A stretch of DNA of 64,000 nt from Nitrosopumilaceae archaeon (lineage in GTDB: Archaea > Thermoproteota > Nitrososphaeria > Nitrososphaerales > Nitrosopumilaceae), in assembly GCA_965208905.1 (NCBI GenBank), contig OZ242365.1, positions 448,001 to 512,000 on the forward strand, written 5' to 3'. Position numbers and translations under genes: made by a program. Below, one piece after another: positions 22,173 through 41,409 of this stretch. The notes under the pieces are model-generated. The model had not been told where the DNA came from. It worked only from the letters and a program-made list of their open reading frames with translations, and searched no databases. Numbering within the stretch: position 1 is the first letter of the stretch; each line of letters starts with the position of its first letter.

Positions 22173-22397
22173 AATATTGCGTAGAGTTTATAACGTAGTG
22201 TTGTGTCTTAAAAATGGTGTCAAGCGTCGTCCGTGCCGGTCCCGTAATGTTAATCAGTTCATGTACCGTCAATTATTTTACTGGTTAACGGCACCAATCA
22301 TCTTATATACTACAAATGTGTATGATACACGACGGCACATGAAAAGATGTTATATAATTAGGGTTATCGTAAAATTTGCTTTGGGGTGGTGCGCGTA

Positions 22398-22544
22398 ATG
22401 CCGCGCCGGCCCAAGTGGATACATGGCATGTGTGATACGTGCAGAGTTGCTGTATGGGTATTTGTTCGGCGAACCGCACACGGATATATCGTACTGGACA
22501 GTTGCGGCACGTGTGGTCATGCCGAGAGGGGAATTTTACGATGA
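22398..22544 (+). CDS. 48-aa Zn-ribbon protein
   Basis: Hand-translated MPRRPKWIHGMCDTC...SCGTCGHAERGILR; TAATG and ATGA coupling at the two ends. Confidence 0.65.
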   Translation: MPRRPKWIHGMCDTCRVAVWVFVRRTAHGYIVLDSCGTCGHAERGILR

Positions 22545-22644
22545 CGCCGGCACAGCGACAACGATACAATGAGGAGCGCAGCAATACTATAAACACCAGG
22601 AACCGCAAACGATACGCCGAAAGAAGACAACAGGAGCCAACACT

Positions 22645-22806
22645 ATGAAGTGTGTAATGGACATATGCGTTAAGTGTGGTGTGTCCGAGAGAGTCGCGTA
22701 TGCGATACTATGGGAGATAATGGGAAGTGACGAGCCGGCACAGAAAATCAACGATACCGTATGCGGACTGCAAAGGGTGTTACATGAGATGGAGGGTGAG
22801 GTATGA
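22645..22806 (+). CDS. 53-aa small protein, possibly HTH-like
   Basis: MKCVMDICVKCGVSERVAYAILWE...; ATGA overlaps on both sides. Confidence 0.55.
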   Translation: MKCVMDICVKCGVSERVAYAILWEIMGSDEPAQKINDTVCGLQRVLHEMEGEV

Positions 22807-23227
22807 GTTTTGATTTTGGATGGTTCTGGGAAATCAACGGGACATGACATGTAGTGGGAAATTAGGGACATAAAAAATGAGGGATTAAGATGTTGATTCT
22901 GCGGCTGCTCGAATGAGGGTTAGGTACTTGCTATTGCCCTCGATAGTGATACCTGCGGCTTCCATGTCATGTCCCGTTGATTTCCCAGAACCTTTTGGAT
23001 ATCATGGCCGCATGATTGGGTTGAGGCCGTCCATGATCCATTATATCGAAAACACCGCAGAGATCTATAGGCGTGGCGTCATATGCTCACATGTAGGCCT
23101 TATGGCACCTGGCATGACACACTACAATAAGTATAGCCAGTTGGCCAGTATGTTATTAGATAGATTTTGGGCGTATGAGGAGCAGCGAAAGAGAGACGCC
23201 TCCCCATTATTGAGGGTGAGAGCATGA
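22803..23227 (+). pseudogene. 81-aa gene interrupted by MITE copy 2
   Basis: Removing 22822-23000 restores MSFDFGYHGRMIGLRP...RVRA, ATGA-coupled to both neighbours. Confidence 0.8.
22822..22992 (+). mobile_element. MITE copy 2 with intact 8-bp TSD
   Basis: ttttggat immediately on both sides (22814-22821 and 22993-23000). Confidence 0.96.
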
Positions 23228-23613
23228 CTACACTTACCAGATATCTTAGGCCGGCATGGATTACCTTCCATACGCCATACCGGCCTTATGACATCCCATC
23301 TTGTATATGTACACACTCCCTTTTTACTTTTCATGAAAAACTGACAACCCAGGAGGTATTAGTATGAGGGAGATCGAAAAACAGGTTATTCAGATGCAAA
23401 AGGATCTACTGTTGGAAAAACAAGTACGTATATTAGATCAAATCGAGGCAAGAAAGGCCGCCAAGAACCAGGAGGCAAGCGGTTAATGTCTTGTAGTATG
23501 TTTGATGCTTGTGTGATAGCAGGTTTATCGGAAAGAGAGTCATGGCGAGTACTCAAAATACTAAACAGTCCAAAACAAAACGACAACCCAACATCCAGGG
23601 AGGCAGTACATCA

Positions 23614-24210
23614 ATGACTGATTATACCCAATCCGATCTTCTAAAACGTGGTTGGAGTCTTGGATTAATTAAAAAATTACTAGGCGAGCCAGATCGGTTA
23701 GAGCGTAACCCATATCGCAGAACGGCACCACCAATGAAATTATACCTAACGGCCCGCGTGACCGAGGCGGAAAAAACACAGTCATTCATAGACAAGCAAG
23801 CCAAAAACAGTATACGACAAGAGGCGGCACGTAAGGCGATAGAGACAAAGAGATCTAACATACTGCAATACGCAAACTCGGTTAAGATAACGTACAGGTT
23901 CCCGGATTGCAGCGATGATGAGTTAAGAGATCTTGCCGTCAAGCATAGACAAGAACTTGATGGTGATTACTACGATAATCGTGATTATACATCAGCACCC
24001 GAAGATGTTACACAGCGTTGGATCGTAAACTATTTGCGGCACATATGCAGCACATACGACAATAGTCTTATTGACACATTCAAGAAAACTGGAAGGGATG
24101 AGGCGCACCACGTGATAAAGTGTAGGGTGTTAGATCATATCGCCGATGTATACCCTCAATTACGTAATGCGTGTAATAATCAAAGACACGATTGGAGAAG
24201 ATCGTTCTAA
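23614..24210 (+). CDS. Hypothetical mobile-element protein (probable start MTDYTQ at 23614)
   Basis: ATGA-coupled start; LLKRGWS...LGEPD...NPY...PMKLY phage-like motif. Confidence 0.65.
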   Translation: MTDYTQSDLLKRGWSLGLIKKLLGEPDRLERNPYRRTAPPMKLYLTARVTEAEKTQSFIDKQAKNSIRQEAARKAIETKRSNILQYANSVKITYRFPDCSDDELRDLAVKHRQELDGDYYDNRDYTSAPEDVTQRWIVNYLRHICSTYDNSLIDTFKKTGRDEAHHVIKCRVLDHIADVYPQLRNACNNQRHDWRRSF

Positions 24211-24285
24211 TGACGTCACTGACCACCAATATGTCATATGTAAAGGTGAGAATCAAATAGCCGACATTAAAGAGGCATTCCCTCT

Positions 24286-26403
24286 ATGTGGGGGAGGGGG
24301 AATGCAAAGGGGGAGGGGGAGATGAGTACAGAGTTCATATTCAATTTTCGGTATTACGGTGATGAGTGTGGTTTAACACCGTCAGAGATCGAAATAGTCA
24401 AGGACGGTATAACAGAGGAGAGGCAGCCCTCGATGATCATGCGTGATGTTGGCAGAGTGGCCATTATACAACATGGCCATGTATACGGAATAGAGCGAGC
24501 CGTCAAAACCCGTGAGTTGTTACAAAAATACTATGAAGAAATGTACAAACACACCGGAGAGCATTACAGTAATCCGCAACCCAAAAGCATGAACATACCG
24601 GCACTGACACAGGACGCATTAAAGGCCGAGGTGAACAAACCCGCATGGAAGCACAAACAAAAATGGAACAAACAGATTGACAATTATGAGGATACAGGGA
24701 AGGCTGATTATGATTATACGGCACGTGACATTGTGAGATATTTCAGAATTGGAAAATATAACAAGATCGGCGGAAAGTATAGATTCTACTTTCAACCCGA
24801 AGGATTCAAAAACTTACACATCCCTATCAATGCTGAGGGATTAAGACATCTTGTGTCATCATTACCGGACAGCGACACAATCGACATAACACCAAACACG
24901 ATCAAAGAGACCGCCAAAATGATTGAGTATAGGAGTCGTAATGTTGAAGGTTGGGATCTTGATACCAACTTAATCAACTTGAAAAATGGAATGTACAACG
25001 TAAAGGACGGATCGTTAACACCACATTATGAAGTCAAGAATCATTCGTTAATGCAATGCCCTGGCAATTACAACCCAGACGCCCCACAGCCAAAACGGTT
25101 TGATCAGTGGATGAATGATGTTACTCAGGGAGATAAGGAGACAAGACATGAGTTATTAGATGCGTTTGCCCAGGTTATAGATCCCAACGGCCATTTAGGT
25201 AAGTTGTATTTTTTGATAGGCGGACAAGGCACGGGTAAGAGTACGGCTCAGGACTTTTTAGAGTCGTTTGTTGGTGATACAGATAGAAAGACAAATTACC
25301 ATAGTGTGGAGACATTGCAGCAAACAGGGAGTCGTTTTGGCGGCTCCATGACAATAGACAAGTATCTTAATTCTGCACGTGACAACAGTTATGAGATTTC
25401 TGTTAAATCTGTTGAAAAACTCAAATTAATGGCAACGGATGAACCCACAAGTGTTGAGATAAAGGGTGTGAGTCTGGCCGATACAGGCCCGACCCCGCCG
25501 ACCAGGACGCTTAACGTTTACAGTCTAAACATGTGGCCAATATTCGAGAAGTCATCACTAGATGATAGTGGATTTATTGAGCGATTGAAATTCATTCAAT
25601 TTCATGTACAGTTCAGAGATACCAAACGGGAGAATAGAGACATTGCAAAGGAGATACTAGCCGAGGAGTTAGACGGGATTGTAACACATAGACTCATTCC
25701 ACGCATAATAGAAAACCGCAAACGTATGTTAAGACCAAAGTATCAAAAAACAGTGAGTGAGATCAGAGCCGAATTACAAGGTCTGTTATACGACCTGGGA
25801 GAATTTAAACAACATTGTATTTTTGATGCTGCACATGAGACCACATCCAAACTAATGTTAGAGCGGTACAAGACCCACTGCATAAACACACAAACAGAGT
25901 ACAATGAAAAGAAATTATCCAAATGGCTAAATTCCAATGGCGCATACAAGATAAGAGGTAACCGTAAAGGCAAACGTGTACAGATGTGGAAAGGAGTTAG
26001 TTTAATCAATGATGGTAATGGTAACAGTATAACAGAGTACACTGAGGACGCCCCGACAGTGGAGACCAAGACCAAGCCGACAGTGGAGACCAAGACCAAG
26101 CCGACAGTGGAGACCAAGACCAAGCCGACAGTGGAGACCAAGACCAAGCAAGGAGAGTACGACCCGACCAACTGGCCGGAGGGAAAGCCGACACCCGCCC
26201 AGGTAAGACGCCAGGCAAAAGATATGAGTATGCCGGCATATGTAACAGATGTAGTCATTCGTAATCTTGATGATCATGATTATGATGTGAACGCTACAAT
26301 CAACCATGCCGTCAAGTTTTGGGAGTCGAAGGATACCACAACCCAACTAAAACAGAAAGAGCAACTTGTTGCTATGTTATGTGACTGGTTTAATTCAAGT
26401 TAG
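24286..26403 (+). CDS. D5/P4-type superfamily 3 replicative helicase
   Basis: D5_N-like WDLDTNLINLKNGMYN..G.LTPH; Walker A GGQGTGKST; LKLMATDEP; C-terminal (PTVETKTK)x4. Confidence 0.85.
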   Translation: MWGRGNAKGEGEMSTEFIFNFRYYGDECGLTPSEIEIVKDGITEERQPSMIMRDVGRVAIIQHGHVYGIERAVKTRELLQKYYEEMYKHTGEHYSNPQPKSMNIPALTQDALKAEVNKPAWKHKQKWNKQIDNYEDTGKADYDYTARDIVRYFRIGKYNKIGGKYRFYFQPEGFKNLHIPINAEGLRHLVSSLPDSDTIDITPNTIKETAKMIEYRSRNVEGWDLDTNLINLKNGMYNVKDGSLTPHYEVKNHSLMQCPGNYNPDAPQPKRFDQWMNDVTQGDKETRHELLDAFAQVIDPNGHLGKLYFLIGGQGTGKSTAQDFLESFVGDTDRKTNYHSVETLQQTGSRFGGSMTIDKYLNSARDNSYEISVKSVEKLKLMATDEPTSVEIKGVSLADTGPTPPTRTLNVYSLNMWPIFEKSSLDDSGFIERLKFIQFHVQFRDTKRENRDIAKEILAEELDGIVTHRLIPRIIENRKRMLRPKYQKTVSEIRAELQGLLYDLGEFKQHCIFDAAHETTSKLMLERYKTHCINTQTEYNEKKLSKWLNSNGAYKIRGNRKGKRVQMWKGVSLINDGNGNSITEYTEDAPTVETKTKPTVETKTKPTVETKTKPTVETKTKQGEYDPTNWPEGKPTPAQVRRQAKDMSMPAYVTDVVIRNLDDHDYDVNATINHAVKFWESKDTTTQLKQKEQLVAMLCDWFNSS
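26053..26147 (+). repeat. 24-bp tandem repeat x4 inside the helicase gene
   Basis: ccgacagtggagaccaagaccaag repeated four times. Confidence 0.9.
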
Positions 26404-26486
26404 GTCAATCAAGCACGACTCTATGATCAATTTTACGATTTACAGGTATTAGATGTTAATATTTTTGATACATCATAACCCATCCG

Positions 26487-26569: not shown

Positions 26570-26680
26570 CATATGTATATTAATATCATATTATATGAAT
26601 ATATGGTCATACTAGTCATACTAAAATGCACATGAAAAGTATTGAAAAATGGTAATATGATAAAAGTATTGTGGAGATAT

Positions 26681-26851
26681 GGTTCTGGGAAATCAACGGG
26701 ACATGACATGGAAGCCGCAGGTATCACTATCGAGGGCAATAGCAAGTACCTAACCCTCATTCGAGCAGCCGCAGAATCAACATCTTAATCCCTCATTTTT
26801 TATGTCCCTAATTTCCCACTACATGTCATGTCCCGTTGATTTCCCAGAACC
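26681..26851 (-). mobile_element. MITE copy 3 (inverted)
   Basis: Reverse complement of copy 1; flanks ggagatat | gcaatatt. Confidence 0.95.
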
Positions 26852-26896: not shown

Positions 26897-27100
26897 CTAG
26901 CACTCCAGCCGCCTCCGCACAATCTTTGACGGTCGGACACACAACCTTGATTTACAGCATACACACCTTGATCTATTGGTCTTGAAAACGGCATTGCATA
27001 TGATGCACACCTTGAAGGTATCGTAACGCCACCATAGTTTTGGCGGCGGCATGGCCGCTGATGTGATGCAAGCGCCACAGCAAACATAACATATTGTCAT
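26897..27100 (-). CDS. Cys-rich Zn-finger protein (67 aa)
   Basis: CYVCCGAC, CIICN, CVCC motifs. Confidence 0.6.
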   Translation of the reverse strand: MTICYVCCGACITSAAMPPPKLWWRYDTFKVCIICNAVFKTNRSRCVCCKSRLCVRPSKIVRRRLEC

Positions 27101-27631
27101 GGTGTAAACACCACGTTTTTAAAATCTAATTCGTCTCACCTAGACTCATGGCAATAATACTAATCGGTACTTAGTATAAAAAGGATTGCGTGTATTAATC
27201 GATTTTTAACTGCCATGAATCCAATCGATTAACAGACCGACACGCCCGGCATGGTAAACACATTATAGTGGTATATTATATCAATTTTTTGATTTGCGAT
27301 TCTCGTAGTCATGTGCTTATATTGTATACAATATAATTATATATAAACTCATCAATATAAGACTAGAAATAAAATACAAAATGGTTTATCTGCTGAATCG
27401 TTGTTTTATCTTTGTTATTATGTTGGGTTTAATGTTGCTTGTTGGTATACTATCGGCTGGCTGTGTGATTGGTGTTACGTCTGTGAGTTGGGGCGCCTTA
27501 TCACGTTGTACAAAATGGAACTGTTAAGATAGCGTGTGATGGTTAGCGCTGTCAAAAACGTGTGATAAGCACACACTGATGTATCGTAAAACACATGATT
27601 ACATGTGCATACAGGTAAAAAATAAAAAATA

Positions 27632-28090
27632 TTATTTTGATTTATTCCTACTCAACCAATCTTGTATCATCTCATCGACACATACCCATAGATGTTTACC
27701 TTGACTCTTGGCGGTCGATCTTACCTGGTTCCATAATATTGGGTTTACTTTTGGTCGTCTTTCTTTCAGTTCGTCGCGTTTTGACTGTATGATGTTTGGT
27801 CGCGCTGGCAGACTCGGCATGTTACTCTTGGTCTCTATACGTCTGATTATTGCATCGGTTATCGTATTGATGTATACATCCGCTTGGCGTGGCGTCACCT
27901 GTGTTACATCGTGTAATACAGGCGTTCCGTTCAACTCGGCAAGATATTTTTCTATGCCTTTTACCATTATATCGTTAATGGACGTCTTTGTTGTCTCTGA
28001 TAGTTTGCTCGCCTGTACGTGTAGCGGTCTAGGCATGCGGATCGTGTGTGATACTCTATCTCCTTTCTTTGCGGTCATACCTGTATACAC
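27632..28090 (-). CDS. Ribbon-helix-helix DNA-binding protein, possibly two RHH units
   Basis: SHTIRMPRPLHVQASKLSETTKTSINDIMVKGIEKYL; second unit PKVNPILWNQVRSTAKSQGKHLWVCVDEMIQDWL. Confidence 0.75.
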   Translation of the reverse strand: MYTGMTAKKGDRVSHTIRMPRPLHVQASKLSETTKTSINDIMVKGIEKYLAELNGTPVLHDVTQVTPRQADVYINTITDAIIRRIETKSNMPSLPARPNIIQSKRDELKERRPKVNPILWNQVRSTAKSQGKHLWVCVDEMIQDWLSRNKSK

Positions 28091-28118
28091 ATGATTACAG
28101 GTATTTTAGTGATTGCAA

Positions 28119-29243
28119 ATGATTACGGGTGTTTTGTTGCTTTGATGTATGATGTATGGTTACACATGTTTACAGGTGTTTTATGGTTGTTTACCATGCA
28201 CCAGGACCTAGACGGCCGGCCACACCGCATGACGTCATGACCAGTGGCCACACTGGTAACAACATGCAGCATGACCCGACTCCGGACTAAGACGCATGCC
28301 GGCCATACAGTCATGCAGGAACCTAAAACGCCATGCTGCATGATGTATGGTTACACATGATTACGGGTGTTTTGTTGCTTTGATGTATGATGTATGGTTA
28401 CACATGTTTACAGGTGTTTTATGGTTGTTTACCATGCACCAGGACCTAGACGGCCGGCCACACCGCATGACGTCATGACCAGTGGCCACACTGGTAACAA
28501 CATGCAGCATGACCCGACTCCGGACTAAGACGCATGCCGGCCATACAGTCATGCAGGAACCTAAAACGCCATGCTGCATGATGTATGGTTACACATGATT
28601 ACGGGTGTTTTGTTGCTTTGATGTATGATGTATGGTTACACATGTTTACAGGTGTTTTATGGTTGTTTACCATGCACCAGGACCTAGACGGCCGGCCACA
28701 CCGCATGACGTCATGACCAGTGGCCACACTGGTAACAACATGCAGCATGACCCGACTCCGGACTAAGACGCATGCCGGCCATACAGTCATGCAGGAACCT
28801 AAAACGCCATGCTGCATGATGTATGGTTACACATGATTACGGGTGTTTTGTTGCTTTGATGTATGATGTATGGTTACACATGTTTACAGGTGTTTTATGG
28901 TTGTTTACCATGCACCAGGACCTAGACGGCCGGCCACACCGCATGACGTCATGACCAGTGGCCACACTGGTAACAACATGCAGCATGACCCGACTCCGGA
29001 CTAAGACGCATGCCGGCCATACAGTCATGCAGGAACCTAAAACGCCATGCTGCATGATGTATGGTTACACATGATTACGGGTGTTTTGTTGCTTTGATGT
29101 ATGATGTATGGTTACACATGTTTACAGGTGTTTTATGGTTGTTTACCATGCACCAGGACCTAGACGGCCGGCCATACAGTCATGCAGGAACCTAAAACGC
29201 CATACTGCATGATGTATGGTTACACATGATTACGGGTGTTTTG
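28119..29243. repeat. 238-bp tandem array: four identical units, one internally deleted unit and a stub
   Basis: Unit starts at 28119, 28357, 28595, 28833 and 29071; fifth unit deleted between two gccggcca microhomologies. Confidence 0.95.
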
Positions 29244-29254
29244 GTATCATGATA

Positions 29255-29491
29255 TCACGTGGTGATATCAGATACAATACGTGCGGCATCTATGCGCCAA
29301 CCATCGGATACGGATGTATCGGACGCCATATCATGGAGCATTAGGTATGTTTCATATGACATTCCTGTTGATATCATATCCCACTCGGCGGCCGCCACCA
29401 TATGTGTCAATTCAGTGGCGGCATACATACCGCCTAATACAACAACACCCAGTACACACCACCCAACAGGGTGATCATACAACCACCTCAC
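29255..29491 (-). CDS. Small membrane protein (78 aa)
   Basis: GTGA-coupled to the upstream gene; N-terminal TM segment. Confidence 0.5.
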   Translation of the reverse strand: MRWLYDHPVGWCVLGVVVLGGMYAATELTHMVAAAEWDMISTGMSYETYLMLHDMASDTSVSDGWRIDAARIVSDITT

Positions 29492-34350: not shown

Positions 34351-34911
34351 CTAGATATTGCTGCGTCGGGTCCAACGTCGTATCGTAGACTCAGACCGGG
34401 TGGCCCTGTCTATTAAGGCGTGGTTGGTTAAATGGGCGGTCATACGCTCGGCCGGACCTGGGACTCCTGCAAAATACCTGTCCTGGTTGCGGCTACGTCG
34501 TGTGTGGTTTCGGTCTATACGGTTGAGTATGCGTTTTAGATCCCAATCATCGGGGTTGTGTTGTACAGGTGCGCCTCTGGGCGGGTCGGGGACACGGCCT
34601 ATCGTTATACACGCACATACAGCACACTGGTTATCTATCAGTGGGAGTCGTATAATGCTATGACATTTCGGGCATTGCGCGAGTGGCCAACGATATAGCC
34701 CAGTAGCGACGTTGAGTATGGGCGGTGCTGGACTCCAATTACACCATGCACCGCAAACACACACAGGGCATCTATTACCGAGTTTTTTGGCGGTGTCATA
34801 CGTAATGTCGCTGTGGCAGTGATTGCAGTGGGTATATTTTTCTGGCATGCTAGAATGATCCGTCCAGGGATGATCTGCGGGCTGTGGGGCGCCATCCATC
34901 CCTATACCCAT
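34351..34911 (-). CDS. Multi-CxxC Zn-finger protein
   Basis: CNHC, CPVCVCGAWC, CPKC, CAVC. Confidence 0.6.
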   Translation of the reverse strand: MGIGMDGAPQPADHPWTDHSSMPEKYTHCNHCHSDITYDTAKKLGNRCPVCVCGAWCNWSPAPPILNVATGLYRWPLAQCPKCHSIIRLPLIDNQCAVCACITIGRVPDPPRGAPVQHNPDDWDLKRILNRIDRNHTRRSRNQDRYFAGVPGPAERMTAHLTNHALIDRATRSESTIRRWTRRSNI

Positions 34912-35252: not shown

Positions 35253-35513
35253 TCATGTCTCTAACCTCGATATAATGACGTCCAGTTTGGACTCCATCCT
35301 ATCCATGCGCTTATCCATACCATCCATGCGCTTGGTTAGGTTTGCCTCAACAGAATCAATGCGCTTGGTTAGGTTTGCCTCAACAGAATCAATGCGCTTG
35401 GTTAACAGGTCGGCGGTCTTTGTTATTGAGGCTTGGATCTCCTTCACGCGAATATCCAGTATATCCTCTGTGATTGTGATATTACTCATGATGTACGTTA
35501 AACGAACATACAA
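35253..35513 (-). CDS. Coiled-coil protein with 11-aa repeats
   Basis: LTKRIDSVEAN repeats (33-bp DNA repeat). Confidence 0.65.
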   Translation of the reverse strand: MYVRLTYIMSNITITEDILDIRVKEIQASITKTADLLTKRIDSVEANLTKRIDSVEANLTKRMDGMDKRMDRMESKLDVIISRLET

Positions 35514-35590: not shown

Positions 35591-36091
35591 TTACCTTCCC
35601 AGTCCACCGAACGCACCACCGGCCGCACGAACCGCATTTATTCCGGTGTGGCCGGCCTGCACTAAGGCGCGTATTGCTCCGGATATGGCCGGCATGTATG
35701 CTATCAAGCCGCGAATTAGTAGTATCGTATAGACGCCTTGTATAATTGCGGTTATGGGCCATGGGACTCCAAACACGGTTAGTATCTCAAAAGCCATTGT
35801 ACCGGACGCTAGTTTCAACATTTCTACTGACATCGACAACCATAACTCTAGTGATTGTATCGTTAATTGTAGAGAGTCGCCTTCTATTTCGCCTAAGGCT
35901 ATCATTTGTTGTTGTATGGTGTTATCCTGCATGGCTGCCCATATTGCAGAGATTTGCGGGCCGGCGGGGGTGATTCCGTCCATAGTCGTTATCGTAATGT
36001 TTAGTGGGCCGGCTATCAGTATGTCCACTGCGGCCAGCGAACCGGATAGAATATACATAAAAAGAAATACCCTTAACCAATTATCTTTCAT
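35591..36091 (-). CDS. Hydrophobic membrane protein, candidate virion or envelope protein
   Basis: Hydrophobic segments at both ends, NIT sequon, ATGA-coupled. Confidence 0.65.
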   Translation of the reverse strand: MKDNWLRVFLFMYILSGSLAAVDILIAGPLNITITTMDGITPAGPQISAIWAAMQDNTIQQQMIALGEIEGDSLQLTIQSLELWLSMSVEMLKLASGTMAFEILTVFGVPWPITAIIQGVYTILLIRGLIAYMPAISGAIRALVQAGHTGINAVRAAGGAFGGLGR

Positions 36092-36258
36092 TGGCCGGCC
36101 TCCTGCATAGATACATGTTCCTGGTAATTATGCACGGCCTCAAGTATTCGGCGGTTATAGCCTTCTGCGTGATAATCATTCATTCTGCGTTTTGTATCTA
36201 TGCGCTCCTCTAGGTATTGCTCATAGTCTTTGAGGGTGGGTTCTATATGTTTGCTCAT
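36088..36258 (-). CDS. 56-aa hypothetical protein
   Basis: Hand-translated MSKHIEPTLKDYEQYLEE...; ATGA overlaps at both ends. Confidence 0.55.
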   Translation of the reverse strand: MSKHIEPTLKDYEQYLEERIDTKRRMNDYHAEGYNRRILEAVHNYQEHVSMQEAGQ

Positions 36259-36497
36259 GGTAACATACCTCTTACCTCATCTCTTAGTTGAGTTGACGTT
36301 AATGGCTTGAGTATTTTTTTGTATTTTATGGGGCGTCCATTAGATATACCTGATTTGGCCATCTCTATGACTGCGTATGATTGTAGTATGCTATCATGGT
36401 CTGATCTTGTACTGTCTGCGAGTGCATCAATGTATAATGCTTGTATCTTTTCGAGTTTTGTTAAGTCTCCATATATCTTGTCTGTTAGTTGTATCAT
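36255..36497 (-). CDS. 80-aa hypothetical protein
   Basis: ATGA-coupled ORF. Confidence 0.6.
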   Translation of the reverse strand: MIQLTDKIYGDLTKLEKIQALYIDALADSTRSDHDSILQSYAVIEMAKSGISNGRPIKYKKILKPLTSTQLRDEVRGMLP

Positions 36498-36673
36498 GAT
36501 GTATTATCCTGTTTTGTGAGTGTGTTACTCTTTGGGGTTGTGAGTATGTCTAGATATTCAGTCATGGATATATCACGTTTTAATTCTACCGATTTCTCAC
36601 GGCGTCCTTGATTGAGTTTCTCGGACATTTGTTTTGTTACTCGGATTGTTGTTATTTCGTTTTTCTCTGTCAT
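36494..36673 (-). CDS. 59-aa RHH-like regulator, first gene of its operon
   Basis: Hand-translated MTEKNEITTIRVTKQMSEKL...SMTEYLDIL; AT-rich TATA-like region upstream. Confidence 0.6.
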   Translation of the reverse strand: MTEKNEITTIRVTKQMSEKLNQGRREKSVELKRDISMTEYLDILTTPKSNTLTKQDNTS

Positions 36674-36769: not shown

Positions 36770-36838
36770 GGGGGGGGGTATTTGGGGCATATTCGGCCTC
36801 GGCGCCATTACATGCCATGCTGCATGTTGCGGGTCTTG
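36770..36838 (+). repeat. About 69-bp direct repeat, left copy, flanking the adhesin gene
   Basis: G-run + tatttggggcatattcggcctcggcgccattacatgccRtgctgcatgttgcgggtcttg; one mismatch to 39733-39801. Confidence 0.9.
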
Positions 36839-36895: not shown

Positions 36896-39649
36896 TTATT
36901 CCCTGGCCGCCAGTACTTCGGCTATCTGCGGCCACAGCGGGCTGCTGTATGTATTGGCGTTTGTTCTGGCCTCGGCTGCGGTCATTGGGTTGTCGTGTGT
37001 GGCTTCACCAAAGGCGGCCAGTACCCTGGTCCAGCGGTCGACATGGTCTGCGCCGTGCTGCGTCTGGGACGCCAACTCTTTGACGCTTGCAACAAGCGCG
37101 GGGTCTATTGTGGATTCTGTGGGCGGGTCCTGCGGCGGGTCCTGCGGCGGGTCCTGCGGCGGGTCCTGCGGCGGGTCCTGCGGCGGGTCCTGCGGCGGGT
37201 CCAGTTGCGGGGGGTCCTGTTCTGCCGCCGCTTCAAGTAGTGTCAATATGTCGGCTATCTGCGGCCACAGCGGGCTGCTGTATGTATTGGCGTTTGTTCT
37301 GGCCTCGGCTGCGGTCATTGGGTTGTCGTGTGTGGCTTCACCAAAGGCGGCCAGTACCCTGGTCCAGCGGTCGACATGGTCTGCGCCGTGCTGCGTCTGG
37401 GCGGCCAATGCGGTCACGTTGGCGACAAGCGCGGGGTCTACTGTGGGCGGGTCCTGCTTCAACGAGTTGGCGGTTAATTTCTGTGCGGCTCCGGCGTCCT
37501 GCACGTCTACGGTCCAGGTGGAGAACAGGCCTAACGTGTAGCCGTCGCCGGGGTTTATCGTGAGCGTTACGTTGTTGACGTCTATGATGTTGTCGTTTAT
37601 GGTCGGGACCTCAAGGGTGTACGAACCGATTGGGGGTATCTGTATGATGCGCCAGCCCATATCGGTGGCGTTTAGTATATCTCCAGTACCGGACAGCGTG
37701 ACGTTGACGGGTAGGGGCGCCTGTGGCGCCGGGGATGCGTTTATGCCGAATGATACGGGGTCGCCTTCCGAGCCGCCGCCGGATATGCCGATTGATACGG
37801 TTGGCGGCGGGGGCGGTGAATTGTTGGTGTGGGGACTGTCCGCTACCGTGATTGTCACGGTATCTGCGGATCCGACCCGGTAGCCGGTGCCCGGTTTTAG
37901 AGTCAGCGTGATGGTACCGGCTGGGTTGTCGTCGTTGCCGTTGGTCTGTGTGACGACGTTGCCTCCCGTATTCTGATAACCATCCTGTAAAATTTGCTTG
38001 TTGGAAACGAGGGTAATAGGATTACTGCTGAGGACACCTCCCGTGACGCTTATGCCTACGCCGGGATGGAGTGTAGTACAGGCCAAGTATTCTGATTTGA
38101 TCAGTCCGGCCAAGTTGACCGTGTCGCCTTCCGTCACCGTATCGGGAATGATGCTTTTGTCCAACCACAAGATAGGGCCGTCCGGATGCGGGCGGTGCTC
38201 GTTCGGCTGCATACGCTTGGTGGTCGGGGTGTTCTCCTTTATCTGGTAGCCGGGGCCGTCAATCAGCGTGACGTCTATCCAGTGGTTGCTGGCGGGGTCG
38301 CAGTCCCGTACCGTGTCCATTACGTAGAAGCCGGCACTGCCGGTCATGGCGAATGTTCTATCGTGTCTGTTGGGGCTGCTGAGTATGTGGCCGCTGTCGC
38401 TGGTGCGGAACTTTATTTTCAGAAAACTACCCGTATCCGCTGTCAGGAGGGTTTCTCCAGGCCTCAATGTCGATGCACCGGTATGCGGCGGGTCCACGTG
38501 CACCGAGACCATCACCTGGCGGCCCTCAAAGTTGTTAACCAGCTCACCCAGGGACACGCACGGGTTGTCTTTTGTGCATTCCTGGGGCGGTGGCGGTGGC
38601 GGTGGCGTGTCATGCGGGCCGGGGTCGTCGTCTTGGATTATGTGGGTGATTATCGACGGCTCGCCTATAATGTAGTCGTCGCCCGGCAGCAACTCAATGG
38701 TAAAGACGCCGTCGGGCTCGTCGTGCGAGTCGTCGTTCGTTAATATGTTGAACACAAAGGGTGGGTATACCCACTGCACACCAGAGGGCTTAAAGGCGCT
38801 GAATGACTCAATATAGCCTTGGGTTATGGTGGCGTTGTAGTCTACTCTAGGGAAGCCTCCGTAGGGTACGCCGGGGGATGCGAGTAACATATCAACACGG
38901 AAAAACCCACCCTCCGGCCCCAGATCGCCTGCCAGTTTGAGGTAGACAAGCGGCTTGAAACGTACGTCCGTGTCCGCTGCGGCGACCTCGAATATGGGGG
39001 ATATGCCGTAAGAATACCTGGCGGTCGGTTCGCCCTGGCCGTGCTCGTTTCTGCTGCCGGCAAGTTCACCCGGTATGTCGCCGGCGTAAAAGTCGTTATA
39101 GTTGTCGGCAATGCGGTCACCGCCAACCCAATATATGGGAATTCCCGTCCCCTCCGTATAGGTGTGGCTCCGGACGCCTTCGCGGTCAGAGGCGCTCCAT
39201 TTCAGTACACGGAAGTGATCAGCCATAGGGCGCAGCGGCGACTCCTCATTTATGGGATAATAACCCCTTGTGGTAGATAACGAAAAACAGTCAGTGCCAT
39301 CGGTATTCTGAATCTCGTTTTTCTTATCAAAGGTGACAAGTTGAAGGCGGTAATCAATCCCATTAACTATGCAGTTCCCATCTTCAAAATTATACATTCT
39401 GTACAGGGTTTGCAGCTTGTACTCGATCCGGATGGCATTTTTGATCATATCCTGTATGTCACCATCGTTAGGAAAACCACCCACGTCCGGCGTGAACAGC
39501 AGCCTAAACTGATCCCCAACATTCAGATCTGCCGGGGCATACTCCCAATCCTCCGGCACAGACCACACGTTATAGGCGTGCGCTTCATGGGGGGCCCATA
39601 CAGCAAGCGCCGCGATCGCCACAATAACCGTACATACAACGGCTTTCAT
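36896..39649 (-). CDS. 917-aa secreted adhesin-like protein (Calx-beta-like Ig domains, Pro-rich linkers, duplicated C-terminal domain)
   Basis: Signal peptide; T.DD..DEPDG.FTIELLPG.DY.IG-type units; (PPQD)n linker; two near-identical QTQHGADHVDRWTRVLAAFG repeats. Confidence 0.8.
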   Translation of the reverse strand: MKAVVCTVIVAIAALAVWAPHEAHAYNVWSVPEDWEYAPADLNVGDQFRLLFTPDVGGFPNDGDIQDMIKNAIRIEYKLQTLYRMYNFEDGNCIVNGIDYRLQLVTFDKKNEIQNTDGTDCFSLSTTRGYYPINEESPLRPMADHFRVLKWSASDREGVRSHTYTEGTGIPIYWVGGDRIADNYNDFYAGDIPGELAGSRNEHGQGEPTARYSYGISPIFEVAAADTDVRFKPLVYLKLAGDLGPEGGFFRVDMLLASPGVPYGGFPRVDYNATITQGYIESFSAFKPSGVQWVYPPFVFNILTNDDSHDEPDGVFTIELLPGDDYIIGEPSIITHIIQDDDPGPHDTPPPPPPPQECTKDNPCVSLGELVNNFEGRQVMVSVHVDPPHTGASTLRPGETLLTADTGSFLKIKFRTSDSGHILSSPNRHDRTFAMTGSAGFYVMDTVRDCDPASNHWIDVTLIDGPGYQIKENTPTTKRMQPNEHRPHPDGPILWLDKSIIPDTVTEGDTVNLAGLIKSEYLACTTLHPGVGISVTGGVLSSNPITLVSNKQILQDGYQNTGGNVVTQTNGNDDNPAGTITLTLKPGTGYRVGSADTVTITVADSPHTNNSPPPPPTVSIGISGGGSEGDPVSFGINASPAPQAPLPVNVTLSGTGDILNATDMGWRIIQIPPIGSYTLEVPTINDNIIDVNNVTLTINPGDGYTLGLFSTWTVDVQDAGAAQKLTANSLKQDPPTVDPALVANVTALAAQTQHGADHVDRWTRVLAAFGEATHDNPMTAAEARTNANTYSSPLWPQIADILTLLEAAAEQDPPQLDPPQDPPQDPPQDPPQDPPQDPPQDPPTESTIDPALVASVKELASQTQHGADHVDRWTRVLAAFGEATHDNPMTAAEARTNANTYSSPLWPQIAEVLAARE

Positions 39650-39732
39650 GTTTCATGGGGGGGGGGGCAACTATTTTAGTTTATCGGTTTACCGGTTTAG
39701 TATGCCATGCGTTGATCTGGCGTCAAATAGGG

Positions 39733-39801
39733 GGGGGGGGGTATTTGGGGCATATTCGGCCTCGGCGCCATTACATGCCGTGCTGCATGTTGCGGGTCTT
39801 G
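39733..39801 (+). repeat. About 69-bp direct repeat, right copy
   Basis: Matches 36770-36838; G-run is longer (G12). Confidence 0.9.
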
Positions 39802-40075
39802 ATGTATCGGCCTCGGCGGCCTGTGTTGTATCTTGTCGAGTTGGGATTGTGCAGGACGCGCCTTAGTGTCATCCTGACACACTCTCTGTATGCATCGGCT
39901 GACTTGTGTACCGGGTTGGGTCGTATGACGTTTTGTGTTTGGAGTACGTTTAGGACGTGGAAAATATACGACATGTATAGAACCGTATAATGAATACTAA
40001 TTTAGGTATGTCGTTGGCGTCATGAGTACGATTTGACCAAAAGTGATAATTACATTAGATTGCATATGACATGTC

Positions 40076-40309
40076 ATGCTTTCAATAGTTGAGCTTGTCA
40101 TACTGGGTGGGTTGTTGAGTGTGGGCAGTATCGAGGATCGCGATAAGGCGTTAAATGAATGTCAAAGTCTCGGACATATGCGATATAAGACAATCATAGA
40201 TATTGTACCTGGGAAGGGTAAAATTACAAAACGGACCGAGTTAGAAATAATACAGTATCGACTCGACACAATCCGAAAGGAGATAAAAGATTATCAAAAA
40301 TCAAAATGA
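40076..40309 (+). CDS. 77-aa hypothetical protein; the only clear ORF opposing the others after reconstruction
   Basis: ORF with hydrophobic N-terminus. Confidence 0.45.
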   Translation: MLSIVELVILGGLLSVGSIEDRDKALNECQSLGHMRYKTIIDIVPGKGKITKRTELEIIQYRLDTIRKEIKDYQKSK

Positions 40310-40560
40310 AAGTTGAGTCGTGATCTGGCTGGCTTATGGTCTCTTAATAGTTGGTCATGGCGCTTAGGCCGGGTCTGTTCTCTGTGCATTCTGTAATAAG
40401 CGTGCATGTCCTGGTTATATTCGTCAATATATGAATCCGGCAATTACTCTCCGTCTCCAGTCTTACGCTTCTTCATACTGTTTTTGGCTCGAATGTATGG
40501 GTCGATCACTGCGGCCATGATTATGTTAGGATTGATTATGTATGTTTGATTTGTGGTTCT

Positions 40561-41244
40561 TTATGCGTGGGGGAGGGGGAGTGCAGAGGGGAGAGGGGGG
40601 ATTTCCTCGAATAATTCTACATACCTAAGATTTGTTGGGATTTTTACTGATATACCATCTAACTTATAATTATTACAAAAACCTAATCGCCGTCCTTCAT
40701 CCACACATTTGAAGCATCTTTTCCGTCTGTTTGGGTTTGGTAAGAATAACTTCCCACATATGTTATATCTATCTCCCACTCTGGCACCAATACACCGACG
40801 TGGTGTCACTATGAAGATGTTGGTAACGGTGTCTCTTTTCATACCTATTCTACAATTACACATTAATGCAGCCGCAACCATAACACCATTAGGCACATAC
40901 CTTGACTTAAAACCATCAACGCTTAACGACTCCGCCAGATGTTTTAACGTGTGGCTACCTATGCTACGTTTTGAGTGTTTACATAAAGCCAAAAATCTTA
41001 AAGCCGCACCTAAGGGACTGGTTGACATGTCTTCCTTTACATAACCCATCATTACGTTTTTTCTCTTTGTTGGTGTACCTAAGTATCCATAATTATTATA
41101 TGATACACCCTGCGGAAATATTCCTTCATAACATATGTTATACTTGTAAAGTACTAACCTCATAGACTTAAACCTCATATCAAAATCCACTAGTAACTCC
41201 TTAGCCATTATAGAAAGGTCGTACGGGTCTAACTCAATTCCCAT
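40561..41244 (-). CDS. Hypothetical phage-like protein
   Basis: SHTLKHLAE...YVPNGVMVAAA motif; C-terminal Cys cluster. Confidence 0.6.
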   Translation of the reverse strand: MGIELDPYDLSIMAKELLVDFDMRFKSMRLVLYKYNICYEGIFPQGVSYNNYGYLGTPTKRKNVMMGYVKEDMSTSPLGAALRFLALCKHSKRSIGSHTLKHLAESLSVDGFKSRYVPNGVMVAAALMCNCRIGMKRDTVTNIFIVTPRRCIGARVGDRYNICGKLFLPNPNRRKRCFKCVDEGRRLGFCNNYKLDGISVKIPTNLRYVELFEEIPPLPSALPLPHA

Positions 41245-41409
41245 ATGTTACACATACATCATTCTTATTTTTATAGTTGGTGAATTGGGATTCTAGATTT
41301 TCCTGGGTTGTGGTTGTTAAATTATATATTTTACATGGTAATAAAATATAGATGGTCATGCTAGTCATACCATACTAACTCTATTTATATTATATTTTTT
41401 TATATCTCC

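What the first reader, a model, noticed from the sequence alone, without database searches (positions are those of the whole stretch)
22173..41409. Candidate new ~18.9-kb plasmid or enveloped-virus-like element of ammonia-oxidising archaea
Seen: a D5-type SF3 helicase with no recognisable primase domain, RHH regulators, several Zn-finger proteins, a packaging-like ATPase with membrane proteins, a large adhesin and tight translational coupling. I recognise no integrase, terminase, HK97 or jelly-roll capsid, protein-primed PolB, relaxase or VirB4. Inference: a circular extrachromosomal replicon unlike the pPolB-encoding Nitrosopumilus spindle-shaped viruses or tailed proviruses.
Basis: inference. 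Interest (0 to 1): 0.8.

Follow-up and report, generated by a model that had tools for sequence, protein, structure and literature searches.

The report
Capsid-less spindle-virus relative trapped by transposons
An 18.9-kb once-circular mobile replicon, a distant and capsid-gene-less relative of the putative spindle-shaped viruses of ammonia-oxidising archaea, sits in this archaeon's chromosome, where it was fused in by a miniature IS6-type transposon instead of an integrase.

Summary
The region is not a free plasmid in this assembly. It lies inside a 2.21-Mb single-contig chromosome of an amoA-bearing archaeon, and none of 30 relatives carries it, including one whose flanks are 95-99% identical.

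Its borders are two direct copies of a 171-nt IS6-family MITE. Two more copies lie inside. The 8-bp flanks of four MITE copies pair up exactly as expected for a cointegrate (a-MITE-b...b-MITE-a) followed by two MITE-MITE inversions, one of 4.5 kb inside the element and one of 155 kb in the chromosome. Removing the MITEs gives an 18,871-bp circle with nearly all genes on one strand. Public-run contigs from one sample contain the predicted MITE-free junction.

The element is not without kin. Six gene families match profiles of the Nipumfusiviridae, the putative spindle-shaped viruses of Nitrosopumilaceae. They are the AAA+ ATPase, the zinc-binding protein next to it, the D5_N/DUF5906 helicase and three unknown proteins. 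Identity is only 23-28%, and I found no capsid gene and no integrase.

Its ATPase belongs to a separate clade. That clade includes a 12.2-kb circular element that does carry the capsid gene.

Verdict: a new, probably plasmid-like or satellite, variant of a known virus group with an unusual route of integration.

The parts
22002..22172 (+). MITE copy M1, the left border. It is 171 nt with 30-nt terminal inverted repeats and derives from an IS6-family element. Left flank CCCTCATA, right flank AATATTGC.
   Evidence: one of 8 full copies in the genome, all 100% identical; the relative G005 has the empty site with a single copy of the 8-mer.
22439..22806 (+). Two small overlapping ORFs of 69 and 53 aa, cysteine-rich. 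It is uncertain whether they are coding.
   Evidence: no family hit.
22822..22992 (+). MITE copy 2, a simple insertion inside the element with a perfect 8-bp target duplication (TTTTGGAT).
   Evidence: run contigs cross both of its junctions (table 8).
23509..24210 (+). 233-aa ORF upstream of the helicase; no known family.
   Evidence: no hits.
24286..26403 (+). SF3 helicase (D5_N + DUF5906) with an unassigned N-terminal 200 aa and a TVETKTKP repeat. Likely the replication protein.
   Evidence: Pfam; PHROGs; viral helicase family f15 at 9.1e-21; a 96%-identical variant P0151 lies on a 31,482-bp ENA contig.
26681..26851 (-). MITE copy Mi, in inverted orientation. Its flanks are the reverse complements of the inner flanks of M1 and M3.
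   Evidence: The insertion is polymorphic in the sample, because a junction without it is present.
26897..27100 (-). 67-aa cysteine-rich ORF.
   Evidence: BLASTP 31% identity, E 7e-05, to an ORF of virus NYM1.
27521..27568 (.). Solo 48-nt end of another host IS6-family transposon.
   Evidence: 96% identical to the inverted ends of the transposon at genome 18699-22050.
27632..28090 (-). 152-aa Arc/ribbon-helix-helix-like protein next to the repeat array.
   Evidence: phrog_582 Arc-like repressor, 2.1e-05; no Pfam hit.
28086..29249 (.). About 4.6 tandem copies of a 238-nt unit, 99-100% identical, each with 29-nt sub-repeats and a palindromic CATGCTGCATG-type motif. Candidate origin, iteron or operator array. 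The 72-aa ORFs in it are probably not genes.
   Evidence: families D2, D5, D8, D11; 9 of 11 genome-wide copies of the two motif variants lie in the element. The function is inferred.
29488..30252 (-). 254-aa protein with a C-terminal membrane segment; second, weaker member of viral family f7.
   Evidence: hmmsearch 3.6e-05; hydrophobic segment.
30253..30738 (-). 161-aa soluble protein, homologue of viral core family f8 (present in 9 of 9 viruses).
   Evidence: hmmsearch 1.1e-11.
30735..31130 (-). 131-aa protein with three hydrophobic helices and an NATNST loop. It is the only weak candidate for a substitute capsid or membrane protein.
   Evidence: Family f9 scores E 0.018 by HMM, but hhalign gives 1.4%. 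AF2 model pLDDT 65, too poor to search with.
31130..32422 (-). Protein of viral core family f7 with a single membrane segment two thirds along, as in the viruses. The likely start is at 32254, overlapping the ATPase stop.
   Evidence: hmmsearch 1.5e-08; BLASTP 21-22% identity to 6 viruses; topology.
32251..33366 (-). AAA+ ATPase, the hallmark gene shared with the Nipumfusiviridae and structurally closest to a Nitrosopumilus spindle-shaped virus protein.
   Evidence: 10 of 10 phage-collection hits are Nitrosopumilaceae spindle-shaped viruses; 1.3e-47.
33368..34078 (-). 236-aa zinc-ribbon protein immediately upstream of the ATPase, homologue of the viral zinc-binding core protein (f2).
   Evidence: hmmsearch 5.4e-15; 1.5e-30 to the protein of the 12.2-kb circle U.
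34351..34911 (-). 186-aa protein with several CxxC pairs.
   Evidence: no family hit.
35253..35513 (-). 86-aa coiled-coil protein.
   Evidence: only weak coiled-coil matches.
35591..36091 (-). 166-aa membrane protein, homologue of viral core family f4. In the viruses f4 follows the giant protein gene.
   Evidence: hmmsearch 9.1e-09; hhalign 96.6%, E 4.9e-10.
36088..36673 (-). Three small ORFs of 59, 80 and 56 aa joined by 4-nt overlaps. The first looks ribbon-helix-helix-like by eye only.
   Evidence: no family hits.
36770..36838 (.). 69-nt direct repeat. Its second copy is at 39733-39801, and the pair brackets the 917-aa gene like a cassette.
   Evidence: D17, 99%. Run contigs diverge from the window just left of 36843.
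36896..39649 (-). 917-aa secreted-looking protein with proline-rich linkers and a duplicated C-terminal domain. It belongs to a surface-protein family common in chromosomes of related archaea and was probably acquired as cargo.
   Evidence: full-length homologues at 48-53% identity on 2.3-2.5-Mb contigs; 57.6% GC against 45.6%; Calx-beta-like lead only, score 0.85.
39733..39801 (.). Second copy of the 69-nt direct repeat.
   Evidence: D17.
40561..41244 (-). 227-aa cysteine-rich protein; no known family.
41410..41580 (+). MITE copy M3, the right border, a direct repeat of M1. Left flank ATATCTCC, right flank TAACGAAC.
   Evidence: Its right flank is the small end of an IS copy whose remainder lies 155 kb away beside another MITE.

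Best explanation
The segment 22002-41580 is the captured genome of a small circular double-stranded DNA replicon. Without its three MITE insertions it measures 18,871 bp. It belongs to the same broad group as the Nipumfusiviridae, the putative spindle-shaped viruses of Nitrosopumilaceae.

Shown:
- It carries a replication and core set: a D5_N/DUF5906 helicase, a zinc-ribbon protein and an AAA+ ATPase.
- It carries three further families that lie in the structural gene block of those viruses (f4, f7, f8).
- It carries one host-type surface protein gene.
- It lacks the family's capsid gene and integrase.

Inferred:
- It lived as an episome in this host lineage. Its G+C equals the host's, and host IS6-type elements landed in it three or four times.
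- It entered the chromosome when an IS6-family MITE, moved in trans by a host IS6 transposase, fused the two replicons. Equivalently, two MITE copies may have recombined. Either route gives MITE-element-MITE flanked by one 8-bp target duplication.
- A further MITE insertion and two recombinations between inverted MITE copies then flipped the 4.5-kb helicase module and a 155-kb piece of chromosome.
- Because the capsid gene is absent here but present in its nearest circular relative, it most likely persists as a plasmid-like or helper-dependent (satellite) derivative of a virus and not as an autonomous virus.
For: 1. Strain-specific insertion. No part of 22000-41600 other than MITE or transposon ends and weak repeat matches was found in 30 relatives. 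In G005 (flanks 95-99% identical) the left flank abuts genome position 644881 directly, with one copy of the 8-mer.

2. MITE of the IS6 family.
- 8 full copies at 100% identity.
- 8-bp duplications at the two simple insertions.
- Its first 138 nt are 98.5% identical to the end of an IS whose 417-aa transposase matches DDE_Tnp_IS240.
- IS6 elements make 8-bp repeats and replicon fusions bounded by direct IS copies (PMC7986276, passages).

3. Flank bookkeeping.
- M1 has flanks a|b, Mi has c'|b', M3 has c|d, and the copy at genome 644882 has a'|d'.
- Each 8-mer occurs exactly twice, as reverse complements.
- Undoing two inversions gives a-M-b[element]b-M-a.
- The d site lies inside an IS copy that is intact at 6 other places and split here.

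4. The healed circle has its main genes on one strand and no large ORF broken by a MITE.

5. Contigs of 4 runs (one sample) join 26674 to 41405 on opposite strands with no letters between, inside the two c copies. This is the predicted MITE-free junction.

6. Kinship.
- ATPase tblastn hits are 10 of 10 Nitrosopumilaceae spindle-shaped viruses, and there are no plasmid hits.
- Profile hits: f0 1.3e-47, f2 5.4e-15, f15 9.1e-21, f8 1.1e-11, f4 9.1e-09 (hhalign 96.6%), f7 1.5e-08.
- NMH1's helicase has the same Pfam architecture.

7. A 12,247-bp circular relative (contig of about 2 unit copies) shares the ATPase (2.6e-39), the zinc protein (1.5e-30), f7 and the helicase. It has the capsid gene (f5, 6e-20) and shows no integrase.

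8. G+C is 45.6% without the cargo gene, the same as the genome's 45.6%.
Against: - No capsid homologue (f5, f10) was found in any frame. The best E-values are 1.2-1.4, even after adding the nearest relative's capsid protein to the profile. Short capsid proteins diverge fast, so absence is not proven.
- The functions of f4, f7 and f8 are unknown. Their place in a structural block is positional inference.
- The run contigs come from one sample, probably the source of the assembly, and are short k-mer contigs. They cannot tell a free circle from an integrated form that lacks the third MITE. I could not see the letters of the junction contig; its reported coordinates imply about 2 nt fewer than predicted.
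- Contig depths are not copy numbers.
- Cointegration by transposition and homologous recombination between two MITE copies give the same product and cannot be told apart.
- The 12.2-kb relative is filed under a bacterial (Paracoccaceae) MAG, so its host is unknown.
- The element's ATPase sits on a long branch (1.76) in the tree.
Confidence: 0.7

Rival explanations
1. It is a complete temperate virus of a new family. Its capsid protein is simply too divergent to recognise, for example the 131-aa three-helix protein at 30735-31130 after N-terminal processing, or the f4-like membrane protein. It can loop out through its direct MITE repeats and form particles on its own.
For: - It keeps three families from the viral structural block (f4, f7, f8).
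- It has a membrane protein with N-glycosylation sequons in the position where the viruses have small membrane proteins.
- The ORFs are intact and tightly coupled.
- Variants exist in the sample, including a cassette-like surface protein gene.
- Ni et al. could identify the family's own capsid only by structure (PMC10866085, Results read in full).
Against: - The capsid profile does recognise the 12.2-kb relative at 6e-20 and a provirus in G060 at 1e-3, yet finds nothing here.
- hhalign gives 0.2-1.4% for 30735-31130 against f5, f10, f6 and f9.
- The AF2 model of 30735-31130 is poor, pLDDT 65.
Confidence: 0.17
2. It is an assembly artefact: a free circular replicon that carries MITE copies was threaded into the chromosome at identical MITE repeats, and the apparent inversions are wrong paths through collapsed repeats.
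For: - All borders are 100%-identical 171-nt repeats.
- Short-read contigs break at every MITE (table 8).
- A MITE-free form coexists in the sample.
Against: - The genome is one 2.21-Mb contig although it holds at least 21 near-full IS copies of about 1 kb. That is hard to achieve without reads far longer than 171 nt.
- The arrangement is internally consistent. An IS copy is split exactly at the MITE insertion site, with its two parts at the two ends of the 155-kb inverted segment.
- A second MITE pair 148.6 kb apart shows the same swapped-flank pattern.
Confidence: 0.06
3. It is a decaying remnant or an ordinary variable chromosomal island of orphan genes with no present mobility. The viral genes are relics.
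For: - The neighbourhood is variable between G000 and G005.
- The element has been rearranged by an internal inversion.
- The large protein is of a host type.
Against: - It is absent from all 30 relatives searched.
- Its proteins have no paralogues in the own genome, apart from one 31% partial match.
- No MITE interrupts a large ORF.
- Genes are intact and coupled.
- A 96%-identical helicase variant lies on another contig, and an alternative junction is present in the sample.
Confidence: 0.07

Closest known systems
Nipumfusiviridae (Nitrosopumilaceae spindle-shaped viruses NYM1, NMH1 and others; Ni et al. 2024, PMC10866085; ICTV 2025, PMC12451623)
   Same: - The adjacent zinc-binding protein and AAA+ ATPase genes.
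- A D5_N/DUF5906 helicase.
- Three further conserved unknown families (f4, f7, f8).
- Small RHH-type regulators and a large surface protein gene followed by an f4 gene.
- No pPolB.
   Different: - Identity is 23-28% over only 2-5 BLASTP-detectable proteins per virus.
- No capsid genes f5/f10, no f6, no giant protein f1 and no tyrosine integrase f11.
- 18.9 kb against 27-38 kb; 45.6% G+C.
- The ATPase falls in a separate clade.
12,247-bp circular element on contig CBDCSF010000011.1 (uncharacterised; found here)
   Same: - Same ATPase clade (70% identical to the sister group P0004).
- Zinc protein (1.5e-30), two f7 genes and the helicase are shared.
- No integrase found.
- Small circular genome.
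   Different: - It has a clear f5-type capsid gene (6e-20).
- It has no f4, no f8 and no large surface protein.
- It is filed under a bacterial MAG; 42.9% G+C.
Thaspiviridae (Nitrosopumilus spindle-shaped viruses NSV1-3)
   Same: The best viral structural neighbour of the ATPase model is an NSV protein (E 2.3e-07, TM 0.46/0.54). The host group is the same.
   Different: NSVs have linear genomes with a protein-primed PolB (recalled, and stated in PMC10866085). No PolB was found here, and tblastn gave no sequence-level hit to NSV.
IS6/IS26-family cointegrates and pseudo-compound transposons (Varani et al. 2021, PMC7986276)
   Same: Direct repeats of the element at both ends of the captured replicon, one 8-bp target duplication outside, ends starting GGTTCTG, and later inversions between inverted copies.
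   Different: The agent is a 171-nt non-autonomous MITE acting in an archaeon. The captured DNA is a whole virus-like replicon, not resistance genes.
Cryptic integrated elements of Thaumarchaeota (Krupovic et al. 2019, PMC6563490)
   Same: Similar size (their median is 17 kb), mostly orphan genes, SF3 helicase replication proteins in some, and possibly novel viruses or plasmids.
   Different: Those elements were found through, and are defined by, an integrase and att sites (passages read). This one has neither and would escape such a search.
Plasmid-virus hybrids such as pSSVx/pSSVi of Sulfolobus (recalled, not checked here)
   Same: Small circular elements that share some genes with spindle-shaped viruses, lack the capsid gene and depend on a helper virus for packaging.
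   Different: There is no sequence relation. Helper dependence is only a hypothesis here.

Membership tests
Nipumfusiviridae | Homologue of the family's ATPase | tested here: met
   tblastn: 10 of 10 hits, E 1e-18 to 7e-24, 25-30% identity. Profile hit 1.3e-47. The ATPase lies in a separate clade.
Nipumfusiviridae | Homologue of the zinc-binding protein | tested here: met
   33368-34078 against family f2, 5.4e-15; same position directly upstream of the ATPase.
Nipumfusiviridae | Major capsid protein (~89 aa, two hydrophobic helices) | tested here: not met
   Profiles f5 and f10 against all ORFs and all six-frame pieces of 25 aa or more: best E 1.2-1.4. hhalign at most 0.5%. Still no hit after adding the capsid of the 12.2-kb relative.
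Nipumfusiviridae | Three conserved proteins of unknown function | tested here: inconclusive
   Three families present in 9 of 9 viruses (f4, f7, f8) have homologues here. The text I read does not say which three the authors mean, and figures and supplements were not available.
Nipumfusiviridae | [quoted passage not shown] | tested here: not met
   2-5 shared proteins per virus by BLASTP, mean identity 23.0-27.6%.
IS6 family (for the border repeats) | 8-bp target duplication | tested here: met
   Perfect 8-bp repeats at the 2 simple insertions. The other 6 full copies have flanks that pair as reverse complements.
IS6 family (for the border repeats) | Ends shared with an element that encodes an IS6-type DDE transposase | tested here: met
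   The first 138 nt are 98.5% identical to the end of the IS at genome 2095793. Its 417-aa transposase matches PF13610 DDE_Tnp_IS240 at 1.3e-14. That IS copy lacks a recognisable second end.
IS6 family (for the border repeats) | Replicon fusion bounded by direct copies | tested here: met
   M1 and M3 are direct repeats. The outer 8-mers are identical once the 155-kb inversion is undone.
Thaspiviridae | Protein-primed family B DNA polymerase, linear genome with terminal repeats | tested here: not met
   No polymerase family in 26 ORFs (Pfam) or 20 ORFs (PHROGs). The element reconstructs as a circle.
Integrase-bearing provirus or cryptic integrated element | Tyrosine or serine recombinase and att repeats | tested here: not met
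   No recombinase by Pfam or PHROGs. The viral integrase family f11 gives best E 0.89. The only tRNA in the window is 7 kb away. The border repeats are MITE copies.
D5-like primase-helicase | D5_N plus SF3 helicase core; primase domain at the N-terminus | tested here: inconclusive
   D5_N and DUF5906 are present. Residues 1-205 match nothing. No structure was predicted for this part.
Pleolipoviridae-like enveloped element | Spike protein, small membrane protein and NTPase cluster homologous to pleolipovirus core genes | tested here: inconclusive
   No PHROG hit of that kind among 20 ORFs. The ATPase instead matches spindle-virus proteins. I did not check whether the PHROG library covers the pleolipovirus core genes.

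The most novel reading that the evidence does not exclude
The element and the 12.2-kb circle mark a new family-level lineage of small (12-19 kb), integrase-less circular relatives of the spindle-shaped viruses of ammonia oxidisers. This member has lost its capsid gene and lives as a plasmid or satellite of a larger sibling, the 31.5-kb contig that carries a 96%-identical helicase. It achieves a form of lysogeny by riding host IS6-type MITEs into the chromosome. The same MITEs then reshape the host genome through 150-kb inversions.
Probability: 0.3. Interest if true: 0.75.

Novelty: new variant of a known kind. Interest (0 to 1): 0.6.

Why it matters
- **Host link.** The Nipumfusiviridae are known only from metagenomes. 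Their authors found no tRNA or CRISPR link to a host, and their host prediction had limited confidence (PMC10866085). A relative physically inside a complete amoA-bearing genome ties this virus group to ammonia-oxidising archaea. So do integrase-bearing relatives in other Nitrosopumilaceae genomes.
- **Missed by standard searches.** Integrase-based or marker-based provirus mining would miss this element. A 2026 survey reports five proviruses in 1078 Nitrosopumilaceae genomes (PMC13573593, passage).
- **A new example in archaea.** A transposon-bounded segment carrying passenger genes was reported in 2019 as not yet detected in archaea (PMC6563490, passage). Here the passenger is a whole replicon.
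- **A testable case.** The capsid-less state offers a test of virus-to-plasmid or satellite evolution in a globally important group of nitrifiers.

Tried and rejected
**Att sites.** The long border repeats looked like att sites. I rejected this because the same 171 nt occurs at 8 places in the genome.

**tRNA-Lys at 48488 as an integration target.** Rejected. It is 7 kb outside the element, and G005 has the intervening genes.

**The IS next to the distant MITE as the missing integrase.** The 331-aa rve-type protein at genome 645058-646053 was considered. Rejected because it is a 7-copy IS.

**The 48-nt match at 27521-27568 as a tRNA fragment or origin box.** Rejected. It is the end of a host transposon.

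**Searches that led nowhere.**
- The word-based protein search for the ATPase found only the protein itself.
- PDB sequence search gave nothing below E 0.1.
- Scans of viral contigs with the ATPase, the helicase, P0004 and P0002 found no relative.
- Two metagenome scans found none. The first genome-contig scan found none.
- The ESM Atlas gave no usable lead for 30735-31130 and only a weak Calx-beta lead for the 917-aa protein.

**30735-31130.** The link to family f9 (HMM E 0.018) was dropped after hhalign gave 1.4%. Its AF2 model (pLDDT 65) was not searched, because a poor model gives meaningless matches.

**RNA.** No RNA holder was listed among the sequencing runs, so nothing can be said on expression.

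**Run contigs.** Their depths were not used as copy numbers. Two further joints inside the 917-aa gene (37816>39575 and 37893>38175, side 28-30) are too short to trust.

- Supplementary tables of PMC10866085 and PMC6563490 could not be seen. They may list related contigs or this genome.
A description in the genome's own paper is not excluded.

**Literature searches on prior description.** Searches for Nipumfusiviridae, for archaeal virus + insertion sequence + cointegrate, and for AOA + plasmid + MITE + IS6 found no report of such an integration.

Full report
**Setting**

The window is positions 448001-512000 of a single 2,214,775-bp contig. The genome encodes an archaeal amoA (PF12942, 1.7e-116), so the host is an ammonia-oxidising archaeon. 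By the anonymous taxonomy of the genome search it belongs to the family that holds most of the relatives searched. The finding's region therefore lies inside a chromosome in this assembly.

**The observation**

- Pfam recognises only two proteins among 26 ORFs of the region: the 705-aa D5_N + DUF5906 helicase and the 371-aa AAA-type ATPase.
- PHROGs adds an Arc-like hit for the 152-aa protein at 27632-28090, and 'DNA primase' families that align only to the helicase part.
- No integrase, terminase, capsid, polymerase, relaxase or VirB4 family was found.
- Gene junctions are tight: 7 of 13 are -4 to +1 nt.
- The only tRNA in the window is 7 kb to the right.

**The borders are transposon copies, not att sites**

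- A 171-nt unit with 30-nt terminal inverted repeats occurs three times in direct orientation (22002, 22822, 41410) and once inverted (26681).
- The genome holds 8 full copies, all 100% identical, plus fragments. It is therefore a MITE.
- Its first 138 nt are 98.5% identical to the end of an IS at genome 2095793. That IS encodes a 417-aa transposase matching DDE_Tnp_IS240, as does a 420-aa paralogue. There are about a dozen such genes in the genome.
- This is the IS6 family. According to passages of Varani et al. (PMC7986276), IS6 elements make 8-bp target repeats, have known MITE derivatives, and are found as flanking direct repeats because of their transposition mechanism.

**Absent from relatives**

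- The 19.6 kb matched nothing in 30 relatives, apart from MITE or transposon ends and low-identity repeats of the surface-protein gene.
- G005 shares the flanks at 95-99% identity. There the left flank runs straight into the sequence that in this genome ends at 644881, with a single copy of the 8-mer TATGAGGG. The right flank is joined to the sequence around 646508.
- Relative to G005, this genome therefore has the element, a 155-kb inversion (489.6-644.9 kb), and a MITE copy at each breakpoint.

**Flank bookkeeping**

Two MITE copies (genome 347829 and window 22822) have perfect 8-bp duplications. The other flanks are as follows.

| MITE copy | Left flank | Right flank |
|---|---|---|
| M1 (window 22002) | CCCTCATA | AATATTGC |
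| Mi (window 26681) | GGAGATAT | GCAATATT |
| M3 (window 41410) | ATATCTCC | TAACGAAC |
| copy at genome 644882 | TATGAGGG | GTTCGTTA |

- Each 8-mer appears twice, as reverse complements.
- Undoing the inversion between M3 and the 644882 copy gives that copy its own duplication. It also places CCCTCATA on both outer sides of M1...M3.
- Undoing one inversion inside the element gives the inner MITE its own duplication and puts the same 8-mer on both inner sides.
- The result, a-MITE-x[element]x-MITE-a, is the product expected of an IS6-type replicon fusion. It is equally the product of homologous recombination between a chromosomal and an element-borne MITE.
- GTTCGTTA lies inside an rve-type IS that is intact at 6 other sites. 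Here the IS is split, with its two parts at the two ends of the inverted 155 kb. This independently confirms the large inversion.

**The healed circle**

Removing the three MITEs and one duplication copy each gives 18,871 bp. The helicase module and the long operon then lie on the same strand (only the 77-aa ORF at 40076-40309 lies on the other), and no large ORF is restored or broken at the insertion sites.

**Test with public runs**

- Four runs of one sample hold the region.
- Their contigs contain a joint between 26674 and 41405 on opposite strands, with no letters between. It appears in all four runs, and both coordinates lie inside the two copies of the c 8-mer. This is the junction predicted for the arrangement without the third MITE.
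- The contigs also cross the MITE junctions at the b site and at MITE 2.
- The insertion at c is therefore polymorphic and probably the youngest. The fusion probably used the MITE at b.
- Limits: one sample, probably the assembly's own; short contigs that break at each MITE; I could not see the contig letters; such data cannot tell a free circle from an integrated copy.
- The same contigs show a 2%-diverged version of the helicase region with a 6-nt insertion. This matches protein P0151 (699 aa, 96% identical), recorded on a 31,482-bp ENA contig.
- They also show a contig that leaves the window sequence just left of 36843, at one of two 69-nt direct repeats that bracket the 917-aa gene.
- At least one sibling element with a different central module therefore exists in the sample.

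**Kinship**

- The ATPase has no close relative: the word-based search found only the protein itself. An exhaustive HMMER search found 185 representatives at E <= 0.001, of similar length and 23-35% identical.
- Against the phage collection, all 10 hits are 'Nitrosopumilaceae spindle-shaped virus' records. Against plasmids there were none.
- These records are the Nipumfusiviridae (Ni et al. 2024, Results read in full; ICTV summary, passages).
- I fetched 9 of the genomes and clustered their ORFs, together with five related chromosomal loci, into 28 families. I then searched the element with their profiles.

| Viral family | Element ORF | hmmsearch E-value |
|---|---|---|
| f0, ATPase | 32251-33366 | 1.3e-47 |
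| f15, helicase | 24286-26403 | 9.1e-21 |
| f2, zinc-binding protein | 33368-34078 | 5.4e-15 |
| f8 | 30253-30738 | 1.1e-11 |
| f4 | 35591-36091 | 9.1e-09 (hhalign 96.6%) |
| f7 | 31130-32422 | 1.5e-08 |
| f7 | 29488-30252 | 3.6e-05 |

- Not found: both capsid families (f5, f10), f6, the giant protein f1, f3, f12 and the integrase f11. The integrase assignment rests on the PF00589 match in NMH1.
- BLASTP detects only 2-5 shared proteins per virus, at a mean identity of 23-28%. This is below the 30% the ICTV proposal asks for.
- An AlphaFold model of the ATPase built on 40 homologues (pLDDT 84.6) resembles classic AAA+ proteins such as Vps4, p97 and ORC/Cdc6 (TM about 0.3).
- Among viral models it is closest to an uncharacterised protein of a Nitrosopumilus spindle-shaped virus (E 2.3e-07, TM 0.46/0.54).

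**A separate clade with a circular member**

- In a maximum-likelihood tree of 54 ATPases, the element falls in a 100/100-supported clade with 15 metagenomic representatives. This clade is apart from the one that holds 8 of the 9 viruses. The element's own branch is long, 1.76.
- A scan of species-representative genomes with four clade members found one contig of 24,250 bp. It is two 100%-identical copies of a 12,247-bp unit, that is, a circular or tandem element.
- That unit encodes the ATPase, the zinc protein, two f7 genes, the helicase and a clear f5-type capsid protein of 93 aa with two hydrophobic helices (6e-20). No integrase was found among its ten largest ORFs.
- It matches the element much better than the viruses do (ATPase 2.6e-39, zinc protein 1.5e-30).
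- Adding its capsid protein to the profile still found nothing in the element.
- The record is filed under a Paracoccaceae MAG. With 42.9% G+C and no host genes on the contig, this says little about its host.

**Distribution**

- The ATPase family was found in 8 of 400 other genomes of the class and in 9 of 400 of the family. It was found in 0 of 9 genomes of the host's own genus.
- Some of these loci are integrase-bearing small elements with only helicase, zinc protein and ATPase (G136, next to the topoisomerase VI genes). Others carry membrane and large surface proteins (G060, G109).

**The 917-aa protein**

- It has full-length homologues at 48-53% identity, several per genome, on 2.3-2.5-Mb contigs of related archaea.
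- In this genome there is only one partial 31% match.
- Its gene has 57.6% G+C, while the rest of the element and the genome both have 45.6%.
- It is bracketed by 69-nt repeats. I read it as acquired cargo of a host type, perhaps used for attachment. That use is an inference.

**Reading**

The evidence supports a once-circular replicon of the nipumfusivirus-like group, adapted to this host and fused into the chromosome through an IS6-type MITE. It lacks the capsid gene that both the described family and its nearest circular relative carry.

- The most likely state is a plasmid-like or helper-dependent derivative of a virus.
- An autonomous virus with an unrecognised capsid protein remains possible.
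- The direct MITE repeats would still allow excision by recombination.

**What remains open**

- Whether a free form exists now.
- Which protein, if any, builds a particle.
- What the 238-nt repeat array beside the Arc-like gene does. An origin or operator is my guess.
- Whether the sibling on the 31.5-kb contig is a helper.

Noticed in passing
outside the window: genome 18699-22050 (L068 100-3451): A 3.35-kb IS6-family transposon with 46-48-nt inverted ends. It carries a 420-aa DDE_Tnp_IS240 transposase plus a DNA methyltransferase-like and a restriction-endonuclease-like ORF, inserted next to ribosomal protein genes. This is a cargo-carrying transposon in an archaeon. The methyltransferase and endonuclease labels are by eye only.
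   Followed up: partly
outside the window: genome 1779678-1779848 and 1928312-1928482: A second pair of inverted MITE copies whose 8-bp flanks are swapped as reverse complements. This implies another MITE-mediated inversion of about 148.6 kb. It was not compared with G005.
   Followed up: no
window 41582-41606 and genome 645054-646500: An rve-type IS (331-aa transposase, 7 identical copies; a second family at 55% identity with about 14 copies) is split by the 155-kb inversion, and a MITE is inserted in its end. The genome is very rich in IS elements.
   Followed up: yes
window 24290-24328, 35558-35596, 40569-40607: A 39-nt G-rich motif (runs of 4-6 G) occurs three times in the element, all in the same DNA orientation. 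Its function is unknown.
   Followed up: no
window 15690-15914: A repeat of about 210 nt between two genes recurs at 5 or more other places in this genome (80-98% identity) and in same-genus relatives (76-84%). It is probably another MITE family.
   Followed up: no
window 41644-43929: The flanking 761-aa protein combines a cupredoxin domain with seven DUF285 repeats, encoded by sixteen 75-nt DNA repeats. The left flank gene (18605-21922, 1105 aa) has dCache and LVIVD repeats.
   Followed up: no
window 43980-48183 compared with G005: The right flank is itself variable. G005 lacks the 952-aa cyclophilin-GSDH-thioredoxin fusion gene (45325-48183) at this place and has insertions between the shared pieces.
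   Followed up: no
L040 (G136:C22:110000-129999): A small integrated element sits next to the topoisomerase VI genes. It has a tyrosine integrase, a 362-aa DUF5906 helicase, a zinc protein and an ATPase of the same family, followed by a type I restriction-modification system.
   Followed up: partly
L042 (G060:C1:1125600-1145599) and L044 (G109:C18:1-15000): Provirus-like loci with the ATPase followed by small membrane proteins and large signal-peptide proteins. In G060 there are weak matches to f4, f5 (capsid, 1e-3) and f6. In G109 there are matches to f1, f3 and f7.
   Followed up: partly
window 37098-37223: Seven or more 12-nt repeats encode a PQDP repeat linker in the 917-aa protein. Run contigs show length or sequence variants here.
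   Followed up: no
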